A stretch of DNA of 63,898 nucleotides, counting the filler, from Blastocystis sp. subtype 4 (lineage: Eukaryota), in the NCBI RefSeq assembly GCF_000743755.1. It is 3 parts of 3 records of this genome, joined end to end, with 100 filler letters (N's around TTAATTAATTAA, not from the genome) between each part and the next. Parts side by side here need not be neighbours in the genome. Positions count along the whole stretch, not along the records: positions 1 to 24,326 come from NW_014569344.1; 2 more parts are not named here. One strand, 5' to 3'. Made by a program: the position numbers and the translations under genes. Below the pieces are notes generated by a model. The model was not told where the DNA came from. It did not search any database and saw only the letters and a program-made list of their open reading frames with translations. Below are positions 12,881-22,128 of the stretch, piece by piece; within the stretch, counting starts at the first letter, position 1; every line of letters begins with the position of its first letter.

Positions 12881-13021
12881 CCATATAATAAGTTTATCGG
12901 TGAAATGAAACCGTTATGCTAAGGAACTTCTGTAGCATTTCAGATTCGTCTCTGTGTACTTATAATCTTCTTCCAGTCATTTTGCGTAAGTATTCTACAG
13001 CGATACTGACGGTATTAGCTC

Positions 13022-13374
13022 ATGTCTAATGAAAAACAGATCCATTCTTCAGATCCTTCCTATCTGACTGCAGGTGGTAATAAGTGCAAAGAGATAAGAC
13101 GATTCTTCAATAGGAAAACAAGAGTTACGATTGATGATGGACGAGTATTTGTTGGAGTATTTCATGTAGTGTTTGTATTGACTATATGATTTATAGTCAC
13201 TGGATTCGTCTTCAGGAGTAATCCTTCAGAATACAAAGGAATACTTTCATTACGGTAGGAAATGCTTGGATAAACTTGACACTAGGTGATAAAGAACAAG
13301 AATATTGTCGAGCTGCAGGAAGAGTCTTTATTCATGGAAAAGCAATTGTGAAATGCGAAGTGATCAGCGTTTAG
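13022..13374 (+). CDS. NAA38: Sm-like protein, NatC auxiliary subunit NAA38/LSMD1/Mak31-like; absent from the ORF track
   Basis: Splicing introns 13166-13196 and 13255-13285 gives FFNRKTRVTIDDGRVFVGVFHSLDSSSGVILQNTKEY (Sm1) and RAAGRVFIHGKAIVKCEV (Sm2). Confidence 0.7.
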
Positions 13375-13417
13375 TCTTTTTTAGTGCTTGTTGTTTTTTT
13401 ACCATACTGATGTTGTA

Positions 13418-15390
13418 ATGAATCTTCTTTTGAACATCTTGTTCATTTATTTCCTTCCACTTGTTATCTACACGATTGGAAAGAATGAATATGCAGAAAA
13501 TGCTGATGAACATCTGTTAAGTCAAAGGACTATTATTGATGAATCAGATGTGAGTATTTTCAGTATCTGAGTATTTTTGATTTCATATTGAAGATTGTTC
13601 AAGTACCATTGTCGAGATTGAGCTGTTAAGTGTATCCTGGGATTATTTCTTCGTTTTGATTCGTGGAAATGTCTTAAAAGGGCCATCAAAGCTTTATTTC
13701 CTCAAAACCTATTCAAATGTCAGTGTCGGTATTGACCTCATAGTAAGTCAAGGGAAATCTACGTTTGTTCCTTCAGGGACAGAATTTAAGATTAATGTAA
13801 GGACTCAAGGTGTCAATTCCATCTCTCTTCTTGCTGAAGATACTCTCACTCGTTGTAAATCTGCTATCATATCGATTCCCCTGTCCCAATTGTTGTCAAG
13901 TGAGGAATTGCAATCATGGGTCACATTCAGAAAGAAAAAGGAATTCACTTCATCTGTGGTCTCCTCAGTTGATAATTTCCAACTCAACCTGCTTTCTTTC
14001 CTGTTCCATTTCTGCTCCAGCTGATTTATACTTTCTGATTGAGAGAGAAACTGTTGCCCACAATTCATCTCTCGTAAAGGCTCCAGATGAAGTAAGACAG
14101 CTGGGCTTCTATGGAGGTCGTTTTGCTGATGAAGCTTCCTTCTATGTCGGTTCTCTTTCTCAGAATGGTCGTTTTCATATATGGATTACTCTACAAGCAG
14201 ATGCTGACCTAAGTGATGTTTACTTCTATGAATTCGCTATTCCTAGTTGATTTTTTTATGTCTGATTGATTGTAGAGTGCTTTTTTGACGGATCTGTGAT
14301 GCTACTCAGTAGCATGGAGAATGATCGGGGTGTGTTGGGGCTTTCTGTGGAAGTATACACAGAAACATTCCCAGCAAATCTATTCATTCTTGCAGAACCT
14401 CGAGATAAACATGGAACACGACCTTCTGCAGATGAAGTTGTTTCCCGCGGAACTCATTACACAATCGAATCATCACGGGTGGCTGATCTTACTGTATGGA
14501 TAGACTTGTGATGATAATAATAGTTTGATTCTGGACTTGAGGGGAATCAGATTCTCTGGATCGTGTTGGGTTCGATTGATAATGAATGTATCTCCAACGT
14601 ATTTCGTTTTACTCATACGACTACTGGTACTATCATCATGATTCGTTGACCGATAGCATCGACTGACGTTTTCTCTATGTCTTCCTTGCTAATTACTCCA
14701 CTCTTTCTATCTGAGTCAAATACTACAGTTCTGGATCTCTATCGAGTAGTAGGCGTGATCCAACTTGCTGGCCCTATTTCAACATCTGTTTGTGATGTTT
14801 ATTACTCCTTTTCCCGTCAGTCACCAATTCCAATTCCAGATCGTATTTCTGTTTCTACTCATGTGTATCTTGACATCCTTTCGTTCTCCTTTTTGGTGAA
14901 AGCAACAGATCTAGAAGGTGTTGATGATCCAGCTGTGATGCATGTTACAGCTGAAGCTAGTTTGGATACCCAGAGTCATCGATTTGTTGAACGGGGAGAG
15001 TTTCATTATTGTGCTCAATTTGTTATGAATTTAGAGATTGAGCCTTCGAAAGAGCTAGATTCGCACACTGTATGAAGAGAGAGTGGTTTGTTATATAGAT
15101 GGTTGTCCATGGGAATGTCACTGAAATAGCGGAAGTGATTCAGTTCTCCTCTTCAACGCTTTTAGTGAAGGAGGTAGATGCAATAACGACCCTAATGAAA
15201 GGAGAATCGTTGCTATTTGAAAAACATCAGTATTTTGTAGTCAATGTAGATGTGTGTTTTCTTGGTTTCATTTAGATTGATCGTTCTACAAACAACTATG
15301 TATACTTTTTAGCAAGAAGAGGAGATTGTCTTTCAACAGTGATATGTGTGGATGTACAGTCTTCTAGTTTTTGTAATCTATCAGCTGTTT
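13418..15390 (+). CDS. Hypothetical secreted or membrane protein, beta-rich, multi-exon; 3' end approximate
   Basis: Hydrophobic N-terminus MNLLLNILFIYFLPLVIY; chain of plus-strand ORFs separated by ~30-nt GT-AG introns. Confidence 0.5.
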
Positions 15391-15406
15391 CAATTAAACA
15401 CTTTCA

Positions 15407-16514
15407 TTATTGTTGTTTACGTCTCTTCTCTTTCATACTACAACTACAGCCTTGTCTCTTCGTACTCTTCTTCTCCTCTTCTTCTCCTTCCTGATTCTCC
15501 TCCTCTTCTTCCTCTTCTTCTTCATCCTCAGAACAAGTATCACACTCAGAACCACATTCAGAATCACAGTCTGAATGACCAAACCCTGATAATGTGTGCA
15601 TAATTGTCATAAACAGTTCTTCAAACGATATTCCATCATTCTCTACACACTATCTGTCATCTATTCAATTAATTAGTACATGATCACTAGCTTCCATGGC
15701 ATGATCCAGATAATCTACAATCATGGACACTTCTTTATCCTCCTTATTCTCACACTCCTCAATTGATTTAGTAAGTGTCTCAACGGTAGATAATAAGTGG
15801 TCGTCGTCCAATTGATTACACAACTTACTATCAACCATTTGTAACTTCGCTGCTTGACTCAATGCCAGATGCAAGAAGCCAATATAAGCCTCATGGAAGT
15901 ATTCTGCTGCCTTTGCACTTAATTCTTCACATTTCTTGCGATCACTCTCTGGGACCTTATCAGTGTCATATTCACCAGGCTCATTCTTTTCTAAAACTGT
16001 TGCAGCAATTCCAAGAGCAGCATTATGATAAGCAGTACCCAAAAAGGTTCTAGCTGCATTTATCTCTTCTTCATCATTCAGATTCTTGACCTCCTCATAG
16101 TATTTTTTGGCATATTCCAAGCTACCCTCGTAATCCTGGAGATAGGCACATAATTGATCCAATGTATCATACAGTTTAATTCCTTCCAGTCTCAACGCTT
16201 CCTTATCCTGGCAATACTTTTGAACATGTCCCACAAGAACTTTTAAGTCCTTAACCAAATCGTTGAATGACTCCGTTTCAAGCATTCCTTTGTCTTCTGT
16301 AACAGCAACAAAATATTCCACTACTTGTCGCAACATCTCAGGGCAGTTTTCATCAACATCATATTGGCTACAGTTAAAACAGTGACATATTAATACTTCT
16401 TTTGAAGATCACGGACACTATCTAAAAAGTCATCTGGCTTATTATTCTCAGCAAGCTCTAACAGGGACTCGAGTTTATCAGATAGCAGCACTATTTCTTA
16501 CTGTTAGAATCCAT
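15407..16514 (-). CDS. TPR-like helical protein with an acidic C-terminal tract (possibly NASP/SHNi-TPR histone chaperone-like)
   Basis: LYDTLDQLCAYLQDYEGSLEYAKKYY and FLGTAYHNAA helical repeats; poly-E tail followed by a basic patch (EKRRK). Confidence 0.45.
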
Positions 16515-16641
16515 TCTTACTCTAAAAGACAACAACAAAAAGAATGAATGGAATCTAAGTACCGTAGTATAAGTCTTGATTTGAAAGAGGTCGCGTGTTC
16601 AGGAATCGATGAAAACCCCGAGCAATTGAATCTACTTCATA

Positions 16642-19600
16642 ATGTTTCGAAAGGATCGTTTGTCATTGTTGCTGAGACACCAGCAAGAGAATTATAAGAG
16701 CACAACTCCCGAACCTCCACCTCGAGATGATGAACGAGTTTCTTATTCTACAACAAAGAGTATGGTAGTACTGGACCCTGATAGTATTGTATTCGAACCG
16801 TATGTGTCTTCATCGTCTTCAGCGAGCGATAATGATTCGTTATCTGAAGAAGTTGTTCCTGTAAGTGATTTCAAATTGATTGATGTTTAGATTAATGTAG
16901 ATAATCTGGAGCAACTCGACTTGGATTCTGATTTTAGTATTCAGACTTCGGGACCGATTTCTCCTCACATTTGTGACGTTTAGAAATGATATATTCTTGA
17001 TTTTTAGGAAGATATCAAGAAATACGAACACTTGCCGTATTTTCCGGTTCTAAAACAGACTATCTTCTTTGATACAATTTTCAGTAGCGATGAACGTGAT
17101 TCCATAATGCAGAATTTTGTCCAGGTGAACTATCCGAAGGATGCAATTCTGTTTTCTCAAGGAGAACTTCCTGGATATCTCTATATTGTTGTGGATGGTA
17201 CAGTAGAGTACATCCAGACAGACGTTAAGGGCAATTCGAATACACTTCAGCGATTGTATTATCTGTTTCCAATTATGATTATAGATATACAGGATCTGTG
17301 ATTGGTGAAGCTGATATCTATAACAATAATCGTTACGAATACTATTGTGTCACTTGTGAATCTGTATTCATTCTTTCCATCTCTCACATATAGGTTGTTG
17401 TATTACGTTTGACAACTGCTTTTGTAAAACAATTGATTTCAGAGAATCATCGATATGAGCTTGTATTTAAGTGATGTTCGTATAATCACTAGTATGTATG
17501 TCGCTCTCTCTGTTCGCGCAATTGGAAACAAATGATGTGGATAAATAGCATTCTCCAAGGAAAGAATGAAGAAAAGGAAATGACATTGGGAGCCGGGCAA
17601 CAGCGTAGGCCTCGGAAAAGTCCTGTTCGTCGTACATTGAATGTAGGGTTGAATGAAGAAACTGATCATTAGTTGGTCATTCGTGAAGATGAACAATTGA
17701 ATGTATGGATTAATCAATATATGCTTTTAAAAGAGATTTCTGTTGGAATCAATAGTCGTGTAGGAGTGAGAGAAGGATCTGAGATTCAGATTTACACATG
17801 CTTATCAAAATCTGATCAACAGTACTATGCACTGAAGTCTATCAACAAGCATATGAAATCCATTAAGAACAGTAGTCGATTGTATCGATTCTGGGGTAAC
17901 AATGCGATTGATGTGAGACATTTTCGTAATTCATAATTTCTAGTCCCTGCGAACTGAAGCTAATATTCTAAATGATTTAAACCATCCAAATATTGTCCAA
18001 TTGGTTGAAGTGATGGTTGACAATAAAATGAACGATTTCATCCTAGTGGAAGAATTGATTCCTGGCCGTATTGTTATGGAGGAATCACTGTAAGAATTCA
18101 TTTCATTCTTCTTATCAGAGCCCCACAACCACCGATCCCTATTATGAAAGCTATTCAGATTTTCCGTGGGATTTTGAAAGGTGTTTTTTATTTGCATTCC
18201 CGCGGGATTGTTCATGGTGACCTGAAAGTGAGTAATGTGATGGTTGAAAACACATGGGAAGAGTTACCCAACGACATTAATATAGGCTCTATCTGTGAGG
18301 CTCCAAGTACTCCATCCCTCTCAGGACCAGGATCCCCATTTCTTGATAGTTTTGGTGGAGAGTCGCCTTGGTCTCCAAAGCCTATTTATGTGATGGAGAA
18401 GAAAGATGAAGAGAAGGATCATTCCACTCTTTGTGATCACCGATTCGAGGGGTAGGAGAAGAGATAGTAATGAGATTCAGGGAGAAACCTCATGATCATC
18501 ATTTACGCCAATGCATTGCTGATATTCTGGAAGCCAATGAAAACCGGGTTCGAATTATAGATTTTGGAGTTGCTTATGATAGTACCAAGGGGTATAAATC
18601 AAAGATACAGGTGATTTATAGTGAGTCATCTATTTACGGGACTCCAATGAGTATGCCACCTGAAGTTTACAATGCAAATATTCTAACTACAGCTCGAGTC
18701 ACTCTTCGGAGACATTTGGGGCATCATGTGACACATCAAGACCTTAACAAAGCTTGTAACTTTGGAATGTGTCGTGATATTTGGTCTTTGGGTGTATTGT
18801 TGTATACAATGGTCACGGGAATTGCTCCATTTTATGGGGAGAATATAAAGAAGTTGAGTGAGAAGATTATGTTTTCAGAACCCGATTATGAGATACCAAC
18901 ATTACAACATGAATATGCGTTAAAAGACCTATTAAAACGAATGCTGTATTGAATGAATTAGAGCATATAGACTAGAGACAAGAATCCTTTAACAAGAATA
19001 TCATTAGAAGGTATCATTACTCATGAATGGGTATCTGTTGATGGATTCTATCCAATCAGTTTAAGTAATTGTAATCCAATCATTTAATCATAGCTAGTAC
19101 TTTTCAGATCCTAAAGGAAGAACAAGAAAAAACATCATCAGAACTTGATCAGTCTAATTTATCTCGGTATAAAGTCGTTTCAGATGATCGCCAAGAAGCC
19201 ATACGCAAGACAAGTGAACGACTTCAAAGTATTCTTCATGAATCTCATCATCAAATGGCTCGATCCAGTAGTTCACTTCTGAAGAATCATTCTAATTCTT
19301 CACTTGATTTGTACTCAATGGATACACGTTCTACCATTCATCCAGAACGATACACGGCTTCAGGTACTCTAACCAGCTATCTAAATGAACATGTTCTTTG
19401 TGATTCTCCTATACTGGAACCCAGTCTTGATCTTCCTGTGTCAATTGATCCTATGCCTTCTAATACTCGTCATACTCCTGATTTAACATTATTGCCCCAT
19501 CTCTTTCCTGAGAATGAGACTCCTTCTTCTCCTCGACACAGAAGTATCTTATCTCGTTCTGCTTCTCCTATTCATTCTCCTCCTAATCCACAGTCGAATC

Positions 19601-21476
19601 TTTGTCGATCATCGTGTCTCGACGAGTTGTTGAGTGCATCCAATTCAACTCATTCTCCTTCCTTTGATACCGTGTTCCCTCCTACTAGCACTGTTGATCC
19701 TTCGGTTCCTAGTGGGATTGGTCTTCAAACTGCCTTCTCTCTCTCCTCACGACCGTCTGAGACAGAGCGATATTCCAGTCCTCCCTCTCCTCGCATGAGT
19801 ATGTCACCTCATGTGTTGATAGGTCGAGGTGTTGTCTCATCATCTCTCAAAAGTGGTCTAAGCATTTTATCTCGAGGTCCAAGTGTTTCAAGTTATCTAG
19901 GTATTGAGAGTAGTCAAGACAGTTCTCCAAAAGCTCATTACGTAAAGAAGCTAACTCGATCTAGGTTGAATAAACATGTCATAATTACCATTAGGGGTTC
20001 TTTATCTCTGCCTTATTCAATGAATGGAGGATCCGCAGTTCATCAAAGATTTAATGAAACACAGGAATCTTCTCCATCTCGTTCTTCATCACAAAGTAGT
20101 TCATTTTTAAGTGATCCACCCAAACCACTTCAGATCATCTCATCACCAATTCAAGAAGGTATCAGAATAAACTTCTATTTATTTATAGACTCCAAATTAC
20201 GTCAGTTCACTGAATCTGAGTAGTAATTGTTTGTCCTGATAATTATAGTGATACGGATTATGGCGAAATGGAAGAAATCACTCATATTTTTGACAATTTG
20301 GAAACTCCTGAGGATTCTCCAGTAGCATTAGATGAAGAATTAGCTAAGGATTTTGAACCTCTCGGCCAAGGGGTATTACCTGTACGCACTGTCCAAGGGA
20401 ATATGGTTTGTTCTGAGATGCGTTTGGTATGTGCATTTGACAGTGATAAAGTTTGAATATGAGAGATGCTTGATGTTAAGAATGGTTGTGAAGCGATGGA
20501 GGATCGTATCTCGTTGTTACTCTCAACCCGAGGGATTGTGGATGACTTGTCCAATAGTGGTTCAAACAGTAGTATATTTTGTTTGTTCGATGGTAGGTTC
20601 TGGATTTCAGAGTTATCCAAAGGACATGGTGGTGATGGTTGTGTTGACTACATTAATAACAAATTTATAAGTACTTTGGTTGAAATTTGATTGTATGATT
20701 TACCATAGATATCACAGAAGACCTATTCAACAGATATTGTTACCGCGGTTGTTAACACATATGCCGAATTAGATCGTTCCTTTCTTGAAGTAGCAAGAGA
20801 GAATAAGATCTTCAGTGGGTGTACTTCAAATACTGTAATTCTGATTAAGTCGGTTTTAGGATGATTGTTCATTCATAGTACGAAATTTGAGAAAATGATA
20901 TATTGTGCCAACTGCGGTGATTCCCGTTCGGTTCTTTGTCGCAATGGGACCTGCATCGAATTGAATGTGTGTCATAATGTGAACAATGAGAAGGAAGTTC
21001 AGCGTATAAAAGATGCTGGAGGGTGTAAATCATTGGAATTTCTGAATTGTAGATACATAATGAATGATCGAGTTATGGGAATCATGCAAGTGACTCGGTC
21101 GATTGGAGATATTGAGTATAAGACAATGAAAGAATACTATTGGCATTCCGAATTCAAAGCTGATTTGATTACTTCAGTTCCAGATATTTGTAAGGAACAT
21201 CGAATGCGAGGAGTATCAAATAGATAATGATTCATTGGTAGGATGAGTTCATTATTATGGGAAGTGATGGTTTGTTTGATGTGATTCCACCTCAGGCCTG
21301 TGTGAATTTTGTTCGAAGACAACTCCATAAAGACAATAATCTGGATCGGTGTTGCCAAGGTAGGTACTTGTATCATCTTCAAACTAGAATTACTTAAACG
21401 GGCAAAGCGTTTGGGTTCTCATGACAATATCAGTGTTATTATTATCTATTTGAATTCGGGAAAACCAAACATGTAA
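16642..21476 (+). CDS. Multidomain signalling protein: cNMP-binding domain, CaMKK/GRIK-like Ser/Thr kinase, Ser/Pro linker, PP2C phosphatase; start uncertain
   Basis: cNMP: LFSQGELPGYLYIVVDGTV...GSVIGE. Kinase: INQYMLLKEI, YALK, HPNIV, HGDLKVSN, DFG, GTPMSMPPE, DIWSLGV. PP2C: MEDR, FDGHGG, ANCGDSR, TRSIGD, GSDGLFD, GSHDNISV. Domain junctions join in frame via ~30-nt introns. Confidence 0.8.
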
Positions 21477-21539
21477 TAAGGACCTATCTACTGTTTCTTA
21501 CAAACAATCTCAAATGCATCTTACTAATCAAGAACTCAT

Positions 21540-22014
21540 TTATGCCAGAATCTCATAAGGAAGAACATAAACTGTCTTGATGGGCTTGGTAGGAACCACA
21601 GTATGGCAAGCACGAGGTTGAGCAGGGATTCTCTTCAGGCACACCTTCTCTCCCTTGTTTTCACGCTTGATAGCCTCGTTCTTCTTTACACGGTTCAAGT
21701 GCTCCATTCTGCACTTAGAAGGTCTCACATGCTCAACCTTCACATGGATTCTCTTCTTGATGATGCGATTTCTCACCTGTTTGTTCACTTCCACACCCAC
21801 AGCAGTCTTAGTCACATCAAATACCACTCCAGTGCGTCCATGGTAACCCTTGAACGGCATACCCTTATGGATGGAGCCATTGGCCTTAATATCGACATAG
21901 TCTCCATACTTGTAACAACGCATGTAAGTAGAGAGAGGAATCACTCCATGATCAACGGAAGTCTCTCTTGAACATGTGGCGAGTACGAGCACGATATCCG
22001 TTAGCGTGAGGCAT
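21540..22014 (-). CDS. RPL21: 60S ribosomal protein eL21, with an apparent 1-nt insertion near codon 21
   Basis: [20 protein letters not shown], then in a shifted frame [42 protein letters not shown]. Confidence 0.95.
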
Positions 22015-22017
22015 TGT

Positions 22018-22128
22018 CTACAGGATCGTTAGTCATATCTGATTGGTATAAAGCAAACAAAACAGATGTCAATAGAATGTAGCGGAAAATATTAAAAACG
22101 ACACAAAGACACGAACAGAATCACCTAC
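22018..22128 (-). other. Candidate 5'-UTR intron of RPL21 (111 nt)
   Basis: GTAGGT donor, TGACTAAC branch point, and CTGTAG acceptor 3 nt before the ATG. Confidence 0.6.

What the first reader, a model, noticed from the sequence alone, without database searches (positions are those of the whole stretch)
16642..21476. Single gene fusing a cyclic-nucleotide-binding domain, a CaMKK-like kinase and a PP2C phosphatase
Seen: the domain junctions splice in frame through ~30-nt GT-AG introns with no stop: cNMP ..HRYEL|YVCRS..RTLN|LVIRED..INQY kinase ..RML|DKNP..HEWV..|Ser/Pro linker..|DSDK|NGCEAMEDR PP2C. Kinase K, HGD..N and DFG and the PP2C metal-binding Asp motifs are all present. Known: plants have a PP2C-cNMP-cNMP-kinase protein. 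This gene has a different order (cNMP-kinase-PP2C) and a CaMKK/GRIK-type kinase, the class that activates AMPK/SnRK1. Inference: a self-contained sensor-writer-eraser switch, possibly acting on the AMPK activation loop, which PP2Cs are known to dephosphorylate. I do not recognise this architecture.
Basis: partly seen in the sequence, partly recalled or inferred. Interest (0 to 1): 0.75.

Follow-up and report, generated by a model that had tools for sequence, protein, structure and literature searches.

The report
Kinase-phosphatase fusion with rewired nucleotide sensor
A gene of the gut protist Blastocystis joins a sensor-type domain, a kinase and a phosphatase in one reading frame, a layout already listed in water moulds but untested, and here the sensor has lost the residues that grip cAMP/cGMP, so it likely responds to something else, possibly a nucleoside.

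Summary
The fusion is real. 16642-21476(+) splices through 22 GT-AG introns of 28-31 nt into one 1393-aa frame: cNMP domain, CaMKK-like kinase, Ser/Pro linker, PP2C. The organism is Blastocystis. Two other subtypes have the same frame, and 21 of 22 intron positions are shared. RNA contigs confirm only 2 introns and none at the kinase-PP2C junction.

The architecture is not new. It recurs across stramenopiles and is tabulated for Phytophthora infestans (PITG_17359) and P. sojae (Ps568223), without functional tests in the papers I found. This scan also noted it earlier on another genome.

The sensor is what differs. In all three subtypes the pocket has Asp at the PKA Ala202 position (acidic in 0 of 140 other family domains). 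It has Tyr at the Arg209 position (Arg in 77 of 77 equivalent domains). It is still strongly conserved. Blastocystis is reported to have no cyclases or phosphodiesterases. The same two positions turned trypanosome PKA into a nucleoside sensor.

So it is probably a cAMP/cGMP-independent kinase-phosphatase switch. Its ligand and the AMPK target are untested.

The parts
16642..21476 (+). Whole gene, 23 exons and 22 introns, 1393 aa. Introns: 16861-16890, 16978-17007, 17256-17284, 17364-17393, 17463-17492, 17643-17672, 17760-17789, 17913-17943, 18090-18118, 18452-18480, 18592-18621, 18946-18975, 19065-19093, 20159-20188, 20220-20248, 20451-20480, 20593-20622, 20679-20708, 20849-20878, 21023-21052, 21213-21241, 21360-21387
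   Evidence: ST1 orthologue P0001 aligns end to end
17071..17540 (+). Single cyclic-nucleotide-binding (CNB) domain, aa 124-250
   Evidence: Pfam PF00027; local HMM; CNB-type strand/helix pattern at mostly pLDDT 86-96 in the model of the ST1 orthologue
17304..17339 (+). Remodelled phosphate-binding cassette: Gly-Glu kept, Asp at the PKA-RIalpha Ala202 position, Tyr at the Arg209 position
   Evidence: stretch aa 186-210 is 72% identical in all three subtypes; position numbering from PMC10959531
17718..19033 (+). CaMKK-like kinase, aa 300-678. Gly loop with one Gly (17739-17756), Lys 17829-17840 region, HGD..N 18213-18236, about 85-aa insert, DFG 18560-18568, short activation segment
19094..20158 (+). 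Ser/Pro-rich, poorly conserved linker exon (14% identical in all three subtypes; 13 S/T-P sites)
20212..20300 (+). Acidic motif before the PP2C (DY[S/G][D/E]...F.DL), shared with oomycete relatives; it begins in the 31-nt exon 20189-20219 and continues after intron 20220-20248
   Evidence: 50 of 119 family linkers score above the best reversed decoy after iteration
20220..20248 (+). Junction intron; unspliced it has an in-frame TAG followed 4 nt later by TGTTTGTC, one mismatch from the Blastocystis poly(A) motif (window subtype only)
   Evidence: motif rule from PMC4159000
20418..21458 (+). PP2C (PPM) phosphatase, aa 1111-1388; all metal-binding Asp motifs present; RxxxxD Arg replaced by Cys at 20487-20489
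   Evidence: same codon in an independent contig (X2 record 11)
20580..20587 (+). Perfect TGTTTGTT inside a PP2C exon, at the same codons in all three subtypes; role unknown
21492..21499 (+). Candidate 3'-end poly(A) motif (TGTTTCTT, one mismatch); the ST1 locus has the perfect motif 4 nt after its stop

Best explanation
This is one spliced Blastocystis reading frame, likely one transcript, for a divergent member of a stramenopile-wide sensor-CaMKK-PP2C family, predicted to work as a self-contained on/off phosphorylation switch whose sensor domain likely no longer reads cAMP or cGMP. Shown: the frame, the domain order, intact catalytic Lys/Glu/Asp/DFG and PP2C metal ligands, family membership by domain order and a shared linker motif, and the changed pocket. 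Inferred: (1) the kinase phosphorylates activation loops of AMPK/SNF1-type or related kinases, as CaMKK, GRIK and Sak1 do (established knowledge, recalled). As a non-RD kinase (HGD) it would not need its own loop phosphorylated. (2) The tethered PP2C removes the same or linked phosphates. (3) The CNB domain, about 50 residues before the kinase, sets the balance allosterically. After Blastocystis lost cyclases and phosphodiesterases the domain was kept and remodelled (Ala202 to Asp, Arg209 to Tyr). It most likely now binds a ligand without a cyclic phosphate, with a purine nucleoside as the leading candidate by analogy with trypanosomatid PKA-R. My odds: single gene 0.9; family member 0.85; not cAMP/cGMP-gated 0.8; a different small ligand rather than none about 0.45 (nucleoside about 0.2); AMPK-type substrate about 0.4.
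For: Gene: one open frame in three subtypes, 21 of 22 introns shared, including both junction introns and the 31-nt exon between them. The 80 aa before the PP2C are 55% identical in all three, against 14% for the linker. The acidic motif that straddles the junction intron is shared with oomycete proteins. Three full-length ST1 database models exist, and a fourth, truncated one still runs from kinase into PP2C. Relatives come from transcriptome assemblies with complete ORFs (P0230, P0243). The Fig. S2 legend of PMC10925823 states single mRNAs for the P. sojae genes. Family: 28 of 30 long hits scanned have kinase before PP2C, 13 of 30 with cNMP in front. 69 of 120 hits listed for the P. infestans query are cNMP-kinase-PP2C. 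In the second kinase-only tree Blastocystis joins the cNMP-bearing members (SH-aLRT 93). Kinase class: CaMKK2 382 bits against 275 (MARK2) and 249 (STK11) for the family profile; fold Z 31.9, rmsd 2.4 over 277 residues to CaMKK2, against 29.0 for DAPK. Sensor: Asp at the Ala202 position in 3 of 3 Blastocystis and no acidic residue in 140 other family domains; Arg209 position Arg in 77 of 77 kinase-proximal domains, Tyr in 3 of 3 (143 of 148 domains scorable). Cyclase, phosphodiesterase and PKA-R dimerisation domains are 0 in 8 of 8 Blastocystis genomes, while 2-7 CNB proteins and an AMPK beta (ASC) domain remain (PMC12129017 Table S5). Ala202 to Glu with loss of Arg209 explains nucleoside binding and cAMP exclusion in trypanosome PKA-R (PMC10959531).
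Against: No RNA read or contig across the linker-PP2C junction in this subtype. PMC12129017 warns that merging adjacent genes is a common annotation error in Blastocystis. A second alignment register with a one-residue deletion keeps an Arg; the profile alignment prefers the ungapped register, but with posterior only 5-8 there. Asp is shorter than the trypanosome Glu, and the next position is Glu here but Val in trypanosomes, so the analogy is partial. Blastocystis sits on a long branch. It falls outside the cNMP-bearing clade in the first kinase tree, the PP2C tree and the concatenated tree, although joining is not rejected (AU p 0.36 concatenated, 0.19 PP2C). The Gly loop lacks GxGxx[GAS], present in 76 of 80 cNMP-bearing relatives, so kinase activity may be low. 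The PP2C Arg is Cys here but Arg in 74 of 80 relatives and in the other two subtypes. No substrate evidence at all.
Confidence: 0.55

Rival explanations
1. The CNB domain binds no ligand. It is kept as a structural clamp or protein-binding surface (as in EAG-channel CNB-homology domains, recalled), and the enzyme is regulated by phosphorylation of the Ser/Pro linker or by partners.
For: Arg209 position lost, with bulky Tyr/Glu/Tyr in the cassette. No cyclases. The linker has 13 S/T-P sites. An earlier, unchecked scan note reports loss of the same residues in a marine protist copy.
Against: Gly-Glu, the ribose-binding pair, is kept. The cassette stretch is more conserved across subtypes (72%) than the domain as a whole (58%). 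The acidic substitution falls at the position that confers nucleoside binding in trypanosomes.
Confidence: 0.3
2. It is still a cAMP/cGMP sensor, reading cyclic nucleotides taken up from gut bacteria or the host.
For: An Arg lies one residue earlier and can be aligned to Arg209 with a one-residue deletion. Relatives are canonical. Trypanosome mutant 4 (Glu kept, Arg added) responded weakly to cIMP.
Against: [quoted passage not shown] The profile alignment is ungapped. No phosphodiesterase to end a signal.
Confidence: 0.1
3. Part of the output is a kinase-only transcript, by polyadenylation inside intron 20220-20248 or at the exonic motif 20580, or the locus is two genes merged by the model.
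For: In-frame TAG plus 4 nt plus TGTTTGTC matches the published geometry of Blastocystis 3' ends. A perfect motif in the PP2C exon is shared by three subtypes. No junction-spanning RNA.
Against: The intronic motif is absent in the other two subtypes. Seven internal sites within one mismatch occur in the gene, and two intronic hits are expected by chance (P 0.17). The intron position, phase and flanking coding motif are conserved. Cleavage at the exonic motif would give a stop-less mRNA. 5 of 291 comparably rare codon pairs are also identical in all three subtypes, at least three of them near splice sites.
Confidence: 0.08
4. The kinase is weak or inactive and serves to present substrates to an active PP2C, as proposed for the PP2C-cNMP-cNMP-kinase proteins.
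For: Degenerate Gly loop, HGD, two inserts and a long branch. PMC3019232 suggests this role for the other architecture.
Against: Lys, alphaC Glu, catalytic Asp-x-Lys-x-x-Asn and DFG are invariant in three subtypes. The N-terminal kinase part is 76% identical in all three, as conserved as the PP2C (74%). HGD also occurs in 22 of 118 other family members.
Confidence: 0.1

Closest known systems
Oomycete cNMPx2-CaMKK-like kinase-PP2C proteins: P. infestans PITG_17359 (XP_002896858.1; PMC3019232 Table S1) and P. sojae Ps568223 (PMC10925823 Table S3)
   Same: Same order (CNB, kinase, long linker, PPM). CaMKK2 is the best kinase match. Shared acidic motif before the PP2C. No functional test found; PITG_17359 is reported as constitutively expressed.
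   Different: Two CNB domains with canonical Ala/Ser202 and Arg209, HRD or HFD, and an intact Gly loop. Blastocystis has one remodelled CNB, HGD and kinase inserts.
Cafeteria roenbergensis FNF29_05360 (P0250) and unnamed single-CNB relatives
   Same: Identical domain count and order: one CNB, kinase, PP2C.
   Different: Canonical pocket, in a genus that has cyclases and phosphodiesterases.
Plant/oomycete PP2C-cNMP-cNMP-kinase proteins (PITG_08304, PITG_09375; plant At2g20050 type, name recalled)
   Same: Same three domain types; top hits of the feature search.
   Different: Reverse order and a PKG-like kinase rated inactive. A separate family.
Trypanosomatid PKA regulatory subunit (nucleoside-binding CNB; PMC10959531)
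   Same: Acidic residue at the Ala202 position and loss of Arg209, with Gly-Glu retained.
   Different: A separate PKA-R subunit, Glu rather than Asp, Thr/Asn-Val rather than Tyr-Glu, and an organism that keeps cyclases. Binding is proven there and only hypothesised here. Any likeness would be convergent.
CaMKK1/2, plant GRIK/SnAK, yeast Sak1 (AMPK/SNF1-activating kinases)
   Same: Closest kinase domains by sequence and fold for CaMKK1/2; GRIK and Sak1 are named from recall.
   Different: No recognisable conserved post-kinase regulatory segment in Blastocystis (by eye); fused CNB and PP2C; substrates unknown.

Membership tests
Stramenopile CNB-CaMKK-PP2C fusion family | Order CNB, kinase, linker, PP2C in one frame | tested here: met
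Stramenopile CNB-CaMKK-PP2C fusion family | Acidic DY..F.DL motif before the PP2C | tested here: met
Stramenopile CNB-CaMKK-PP2C fusion family | One clade with the cNMP-bearing members in kinase and PP2C trees | tested here: inconclusive
   kinase: unresolved, joined at SH-aLRT 93; PP2C and concatenate: outside but not rejected (AU 0.19, 0.36)
Stramenopile CNB-CaMKK-PP2C fusion family | Single mRNA across all domains | tested here: inconclusive
   2 of 22 introns seen spliced; junction not covered by RNA contigs
Canonical cAMP/cGMP-binding CNB | CNB fold and Gly-Glu of the cassette | tested here: met
Canonical cAMP/cGMP-binding CNB | Small residue at the Ala202 position and Arg at 209 | tested here: not met
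   Asp and Tyr in 3 of 3 subtypes; an alternative register keeps the Arg but not the Ala
Canonical cAMP/cGMP-binding CNB | Measured cNMP binding | not testable with these tools
   needs a binding assay
Nucleoside-binding CNB (trypanosomatid PKA-R type) | Acidic residue at 202 and no Arg at 209 | tested here: met
   (Asp, not Glu)
Nucleoside-binding CNB (trypanosomatid PKA-R type) | Val at 210, capping Tyr, nucleoside binding | tested here: inconclusive
   position 210 is Glu; capping residue and binding not tested
CaMKK/GRIK/Sak1 kinase group | Kinase domain closest to CaMKK | tested here: met
   (against solved structures only)
CaMKK/GRIK/Sak1 kinase group | Phosphorylates the AMPK/SNF1 activation loop | not testable with these tools
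   AMPK beta domain present in 8 of 8 Blastocystis genomes; no assay
Active PPM/PP2C | Four metal-binding Asp motifs | tested here: met
Active PPM/PP2C | Phosphate-binding Arg of RxxxxD | tested here: not met
   Cys in the window, Arg in the other two subtypes; this Arg is present in only 14 of 29 P. sojae PPMs, so its loss does not show inactivity
Plant/oomycete PP2C-cNMP-cNMP-kinase proteins | PP2C first, inactive PKG-like kinase last | tested here: not met

The most novel reading that the evidence does not exclude
After losing all cyclases and phosphodiesterases, Blastocystis rewired the cyclic-nucleotide pocket of its CaMKK-PP2C fusion into a nucleoside sensor, by the same two positions as trypanosome PKA but independently. 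It thereby couples gut or cellular purine nucleosides directly to writing and erasing an AMPK-type phosphorylation within one protein.
Probability: 0.2. Interest if true: 0.82.

Novelty: new variant of a known kind. Interest (0 to 1): 0.5.

Why it matters
The family puts a kinase of the AMPK-activating class and its likely eraser on one chain across stramenopiles, and I found no functional study of it. The Blastocystis copy is a natural experiment. The commonest human gut eukaryote has no machinery to make or destroy cAMP/cGMP, yet it keeps this sensor under strong selection with a changed pocket. Finding its ligand would show what replaced cyclic-nucleotide signalling in this lineage. It would also test whether the nucleoside-sensing CNB, so far known from trypanosomes, arose twice. 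The first experiment is a cheap binding assay on a 130-residue domain.

Tried and rejected
- No whole genome is held for this window, so cyclase loss, AMPK and other CNB proteins rest on PMC12129017 and PMC13466520, not on my own search.
- RNA test of the junction: 7 of the 9 listed runs were laid (X1-X7). All are low-depth contigs. X2 and X5-X7 gave only unspliced pieces across introns, X1 covered only the downstream ribosomal-protein gene, and no RNA contig reached 20159-20248. Lack of cover is no evidence either way.
- A complex prediction of CNB-kinase with the PP2C part was not available, so whether the two halves touch is open.
- The ESM Atlas returned only clusters with the same domain types, led by plant and oomycete clusters. 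It shows no domain order and does not separate the families.
- The fold searches were filled by the kinase or by whole PKG chains with high rmsd. The CNB pocket was not compared structurally.
- A weak-CNB search in 9 scored N-termini of kinase-PP2C members found none.
- The intronic poly(A)-like motif is rejected as a main mechanism (chance level, one subtype).
- 'New architecture' is rejected. Identity with the plant protein is rejected (order, kinase class).
- Neighbours show conserved synteny in three subtypes but no signalling link; only ribosomal protein L21e was identified.
- Literature searches that found no functional study of this family or of the Blastocystis gene: 0 papers; one expression mention. 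The library lacks most subscription journals.
Full report
1. Observation. The region 16642-21476(+) splices through 22 GT-AG introns of 28-31 nt into one open frame of 1393 aa. Pfam on unspliced exon stretches gave cNMP_binding, Pkinase and PP2C in that order; 6 of 12 stretches hit these families. The only strong hit of a search with the kinase C-lobe exon was a 1417-aa protein of Blastocystis sp. JDR with the same three domains (1 of 5 hits, E 7e-47). It aligns end to end with the window model. The window is therefore Blastocystis, a low-GC subtype other than ST1 (subtype not determined).

2. One gene? A metagenome scan gave 10 loci. They form three groups: ST1-like (L001-L005, L008), a second subtype (L006, L007) and the window's own (L009, L010). 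Spliced alignment of one full locus from each of the two other groups gave open frames of 1424 and 1453 aa with 24 introns each. 21 of the window's 22 introns have the same position and phase in both, including the two between linker and PP2C and the 31-nt exon between them. Synonymous sites are near saturation between the window and the others (28-30% identical codons against 25-27% expected). The 80 aa before the PP2C are 55% identical in all three subtypes and the linker 14%. An acidic motif there straddles intron 20220-20248 and recurs in oomycete relatives. Database models: three of the four named ST1 members are full length. The fourth (844 aa) starts inside the kinase and still continues into the PP2C. 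RNA: contigs show splicing of introns 16861-16890 and 18090-18118, and suggest 19065-19093; none covers the junction. Against a single gene: PMC12129017 (gene-annotation section) notes that merging neighbours is a common error in this genus. Intron 20220-20248 also holds an in-frame stop with a one-mismatch poly(A) motif 4 nt later, the geometry described in PMC4159000 (passages). That motif is absent in the other subtypes, and such hits are at chance level (2 observed, 0.74 expected, P 0.17). I put a single gene at about 0.9.

3. Is the architecture new? No. A search of 1.84 billion representatives with the 844-aa ST1 protein returned 150 listed hits. By local HMMs seeded from those hits, 20 of 150 are cNMP-kinase-PP2C and 33 kinase-PP2C, some of them fragments. 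Pfam on the 30 best long ones confirmed 28 with kinase before PP2C, 13 with cNMP in front. Names came from look-ups of 20 of them and from a search with the P. infestans member, where 69 of 120 listed hits have the full order. They include Phytophthora, Peronospora, Pythium, Albugo, Aphanomyces, Saprolegnia, Cafeteria (single CNB) and Chrysoparadoxa. In print: PMC3019232 Table S1 lists PITG_17359 (1859 aa, cNMP x2, kinase 618-883 rated ok, PP2C, best match CaMKK2), though the passages I read discuss only the reverse-order proteins. PMC10925823 section 2.5 and Table S3 list Ps568223 as CAP, CAP, STKc 493-751, PPM 1389-1744, with high zoospore/cyst mRNA; the Fig. S2 legend (figure not seen) claims single transcripts. 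PMC5322657 (one passage) calls PITG_17359 constitutively expressed. This scan noted the family before on another genome. Trees leave strict orthology open: Blastocystis is on a long branch, unresolved in the first kinase tree, joined to the cNMP-bearing members in the second (SH-aLRT 93), and outside them in PP2C and concatenated trees without rejection of joining. All trees were quick searches on subsets of 36-50 rows.

4. Enzymes. The kinase is CaMKK-like: the best solved relative is CaMKK2 for the ST1 protein (E 1e-30), and the best kinase-only relative for the family profile (382 bits against 275 for MARK2). By fold of an AlphaFold model of ST1 aa 107-700 (mean pLDDT 73.5), the top match is also CaMKK2 (Z 31.9, rmsd 2.4, 277 aligned). 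Catalytic residues are intact. It has HGD where 74 of 80 cNMP-bearing relatives have HRD, and it lacks the GxGxx[GAS] loop found in 76 of 80. The PP2C keeps all four motifs. Its RxxxxD Arg is Cys in the window but Arg in the other two subtypes and in 74 of 80 relatives; an independent contig shows the same codon. That Arg is missing in 15 of 29 P. sojae PPMs, so activity is not excluded.

5. The sensor is the distinctive part. Of 148 CNB domains from 83 family members, 143 could be anchored at the Gly-Glu. At the position of PKA-RIalpha Ala202, the three Blastocystis domains have Asp, and none of the 140 others has an acidic residue. At Arg209, 77 of 77 kinase-proximal domains have Arg (52 of 63 distal ones) and Blastocystis has Tyr. 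A profile built without Blastocystis aligns it ungapped there, with moderate posteriors; MAFFT and a regex allowed a one-residue deletion that keeps an Arg. The stretch is not decaying: 72% identity in all three subtypes, against 58% for the domain and 74% for the PP2C. PMC12129017 (passages and Table S5 rows) reports 0 cyclase, 0 phosphodiesterase and 0 PKA-R dimerisation domains in 8 of 8 Blastocystis genomes, against 10-16 cyclase and phosphodiesterase counts in Cafeteria and Proteromonas. It also reports 2-7 CNB proteins and an AMPK beta domain retained. PMC13466520 (passages) also found no cyclases. PMC10959531 (passages) shows that Ala202 to Glu with loss of Arg209 excludes cAMP and confers nucleoside binding in trypanosome PKA-R, the Glu being worth about 1500-fold for inosine. 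The Blastocystis change hits the same two positions, but with Asp and Tyr and with Glu where trypanosomes have Val. This is an analogy, not a test.

6. Mechanism. Shown: one frame, domain order, catalytic residues, altered pocket. Inferred: a tethered writer and eraser acting on an AMPK/SNF1-type or related activation loop (from recalled CaMKK and PP2C biology; no substrate evidence here), balanced by a CNB domain that no longer reads cyclic nucleotides and most likely reads another small ligand, with a nucleoside as the leading candidate. Rivals: ligand-free clamp (0.3), imported cNMP (0.1), pseudokinase scaffold (0.1), truncated isoform or split gene (0.08).

7. Verdict. This is a new variant of a catalogued family for which I found no functional study (searches listed under Tried and rejected). 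Interest 0.5, carried by the rewired sensor in a cyclase-less lineage rather than by the fusion itself.

Noticed in passing
window 20580-20587; L001 10096; L007 10188: A perfect Blastocystis poly(A) motif lies inside a PP2C exon at the Cys-Leu-Phe codons, just before a 5' splice site, in all three subtypes despite GC3 of 0.31, 0.83 and 0.77. Independent expectation is 5.5e-4, but empirically 5 of 291 similarly rare codon pairs are shared by all three. If used it would give a stop-less mRNA lacking the PP2C core.
   Followed up: partly
whole window: Perfect TGTTTGTT motifs are strand-biased: 16 on +, 3 on -. Gene orientation across the window was not checked.
   Followed up: no
window 20679-20708: The only intron of 22 not shared with the other two subtypes; those share three introns (P0001 aa 623, 1001, 1331) that the window lacks.
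   Followed up: partly
window 21543-22028 (-): Ribosomal protein L21e gene lies tail to tail with the fusion gene, syntenic in all three subtypes. Run X1 covers it at very high depth but not the fusion gene.
   Followed up: partly
window about 15440-16520 (-) and about 13000-15400 (+): Two upstream genes conserved in order in all three subtypes with no convincing Pfam match in the stretches tested; the minus-strand one is helical-looking with an acidic, Cys-containing tail.
   Followed up: partly
proteins P0244, P0246, P0288: Related CaMKK-PP2C fusions carry a response-regulator receiver domain (PF00072) instead of CNB, two with two kinase domains: the same writer-eraser core with another sensor.
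   Followed up: no
proteins P0133, P0117, P0254; P. sojae Ps480075: Oomycetes have a second, CNB-less CaMKK-PP2C paralogue, mostly with HGD, forming its own well-supported kinase clade.
   Followed up: partly
protein P0225: A family member is filed under Batrachochytrium salamandrivorans but groups with unnamed protist sequences; possibly assembly contamination.
   Followed up: no
protein P0217: Aphanomyces astaci 'variant 1' of the family protein has only a short piece of the PP2C, which may be an isoform lacking the phosphatase.
   Followed up: no
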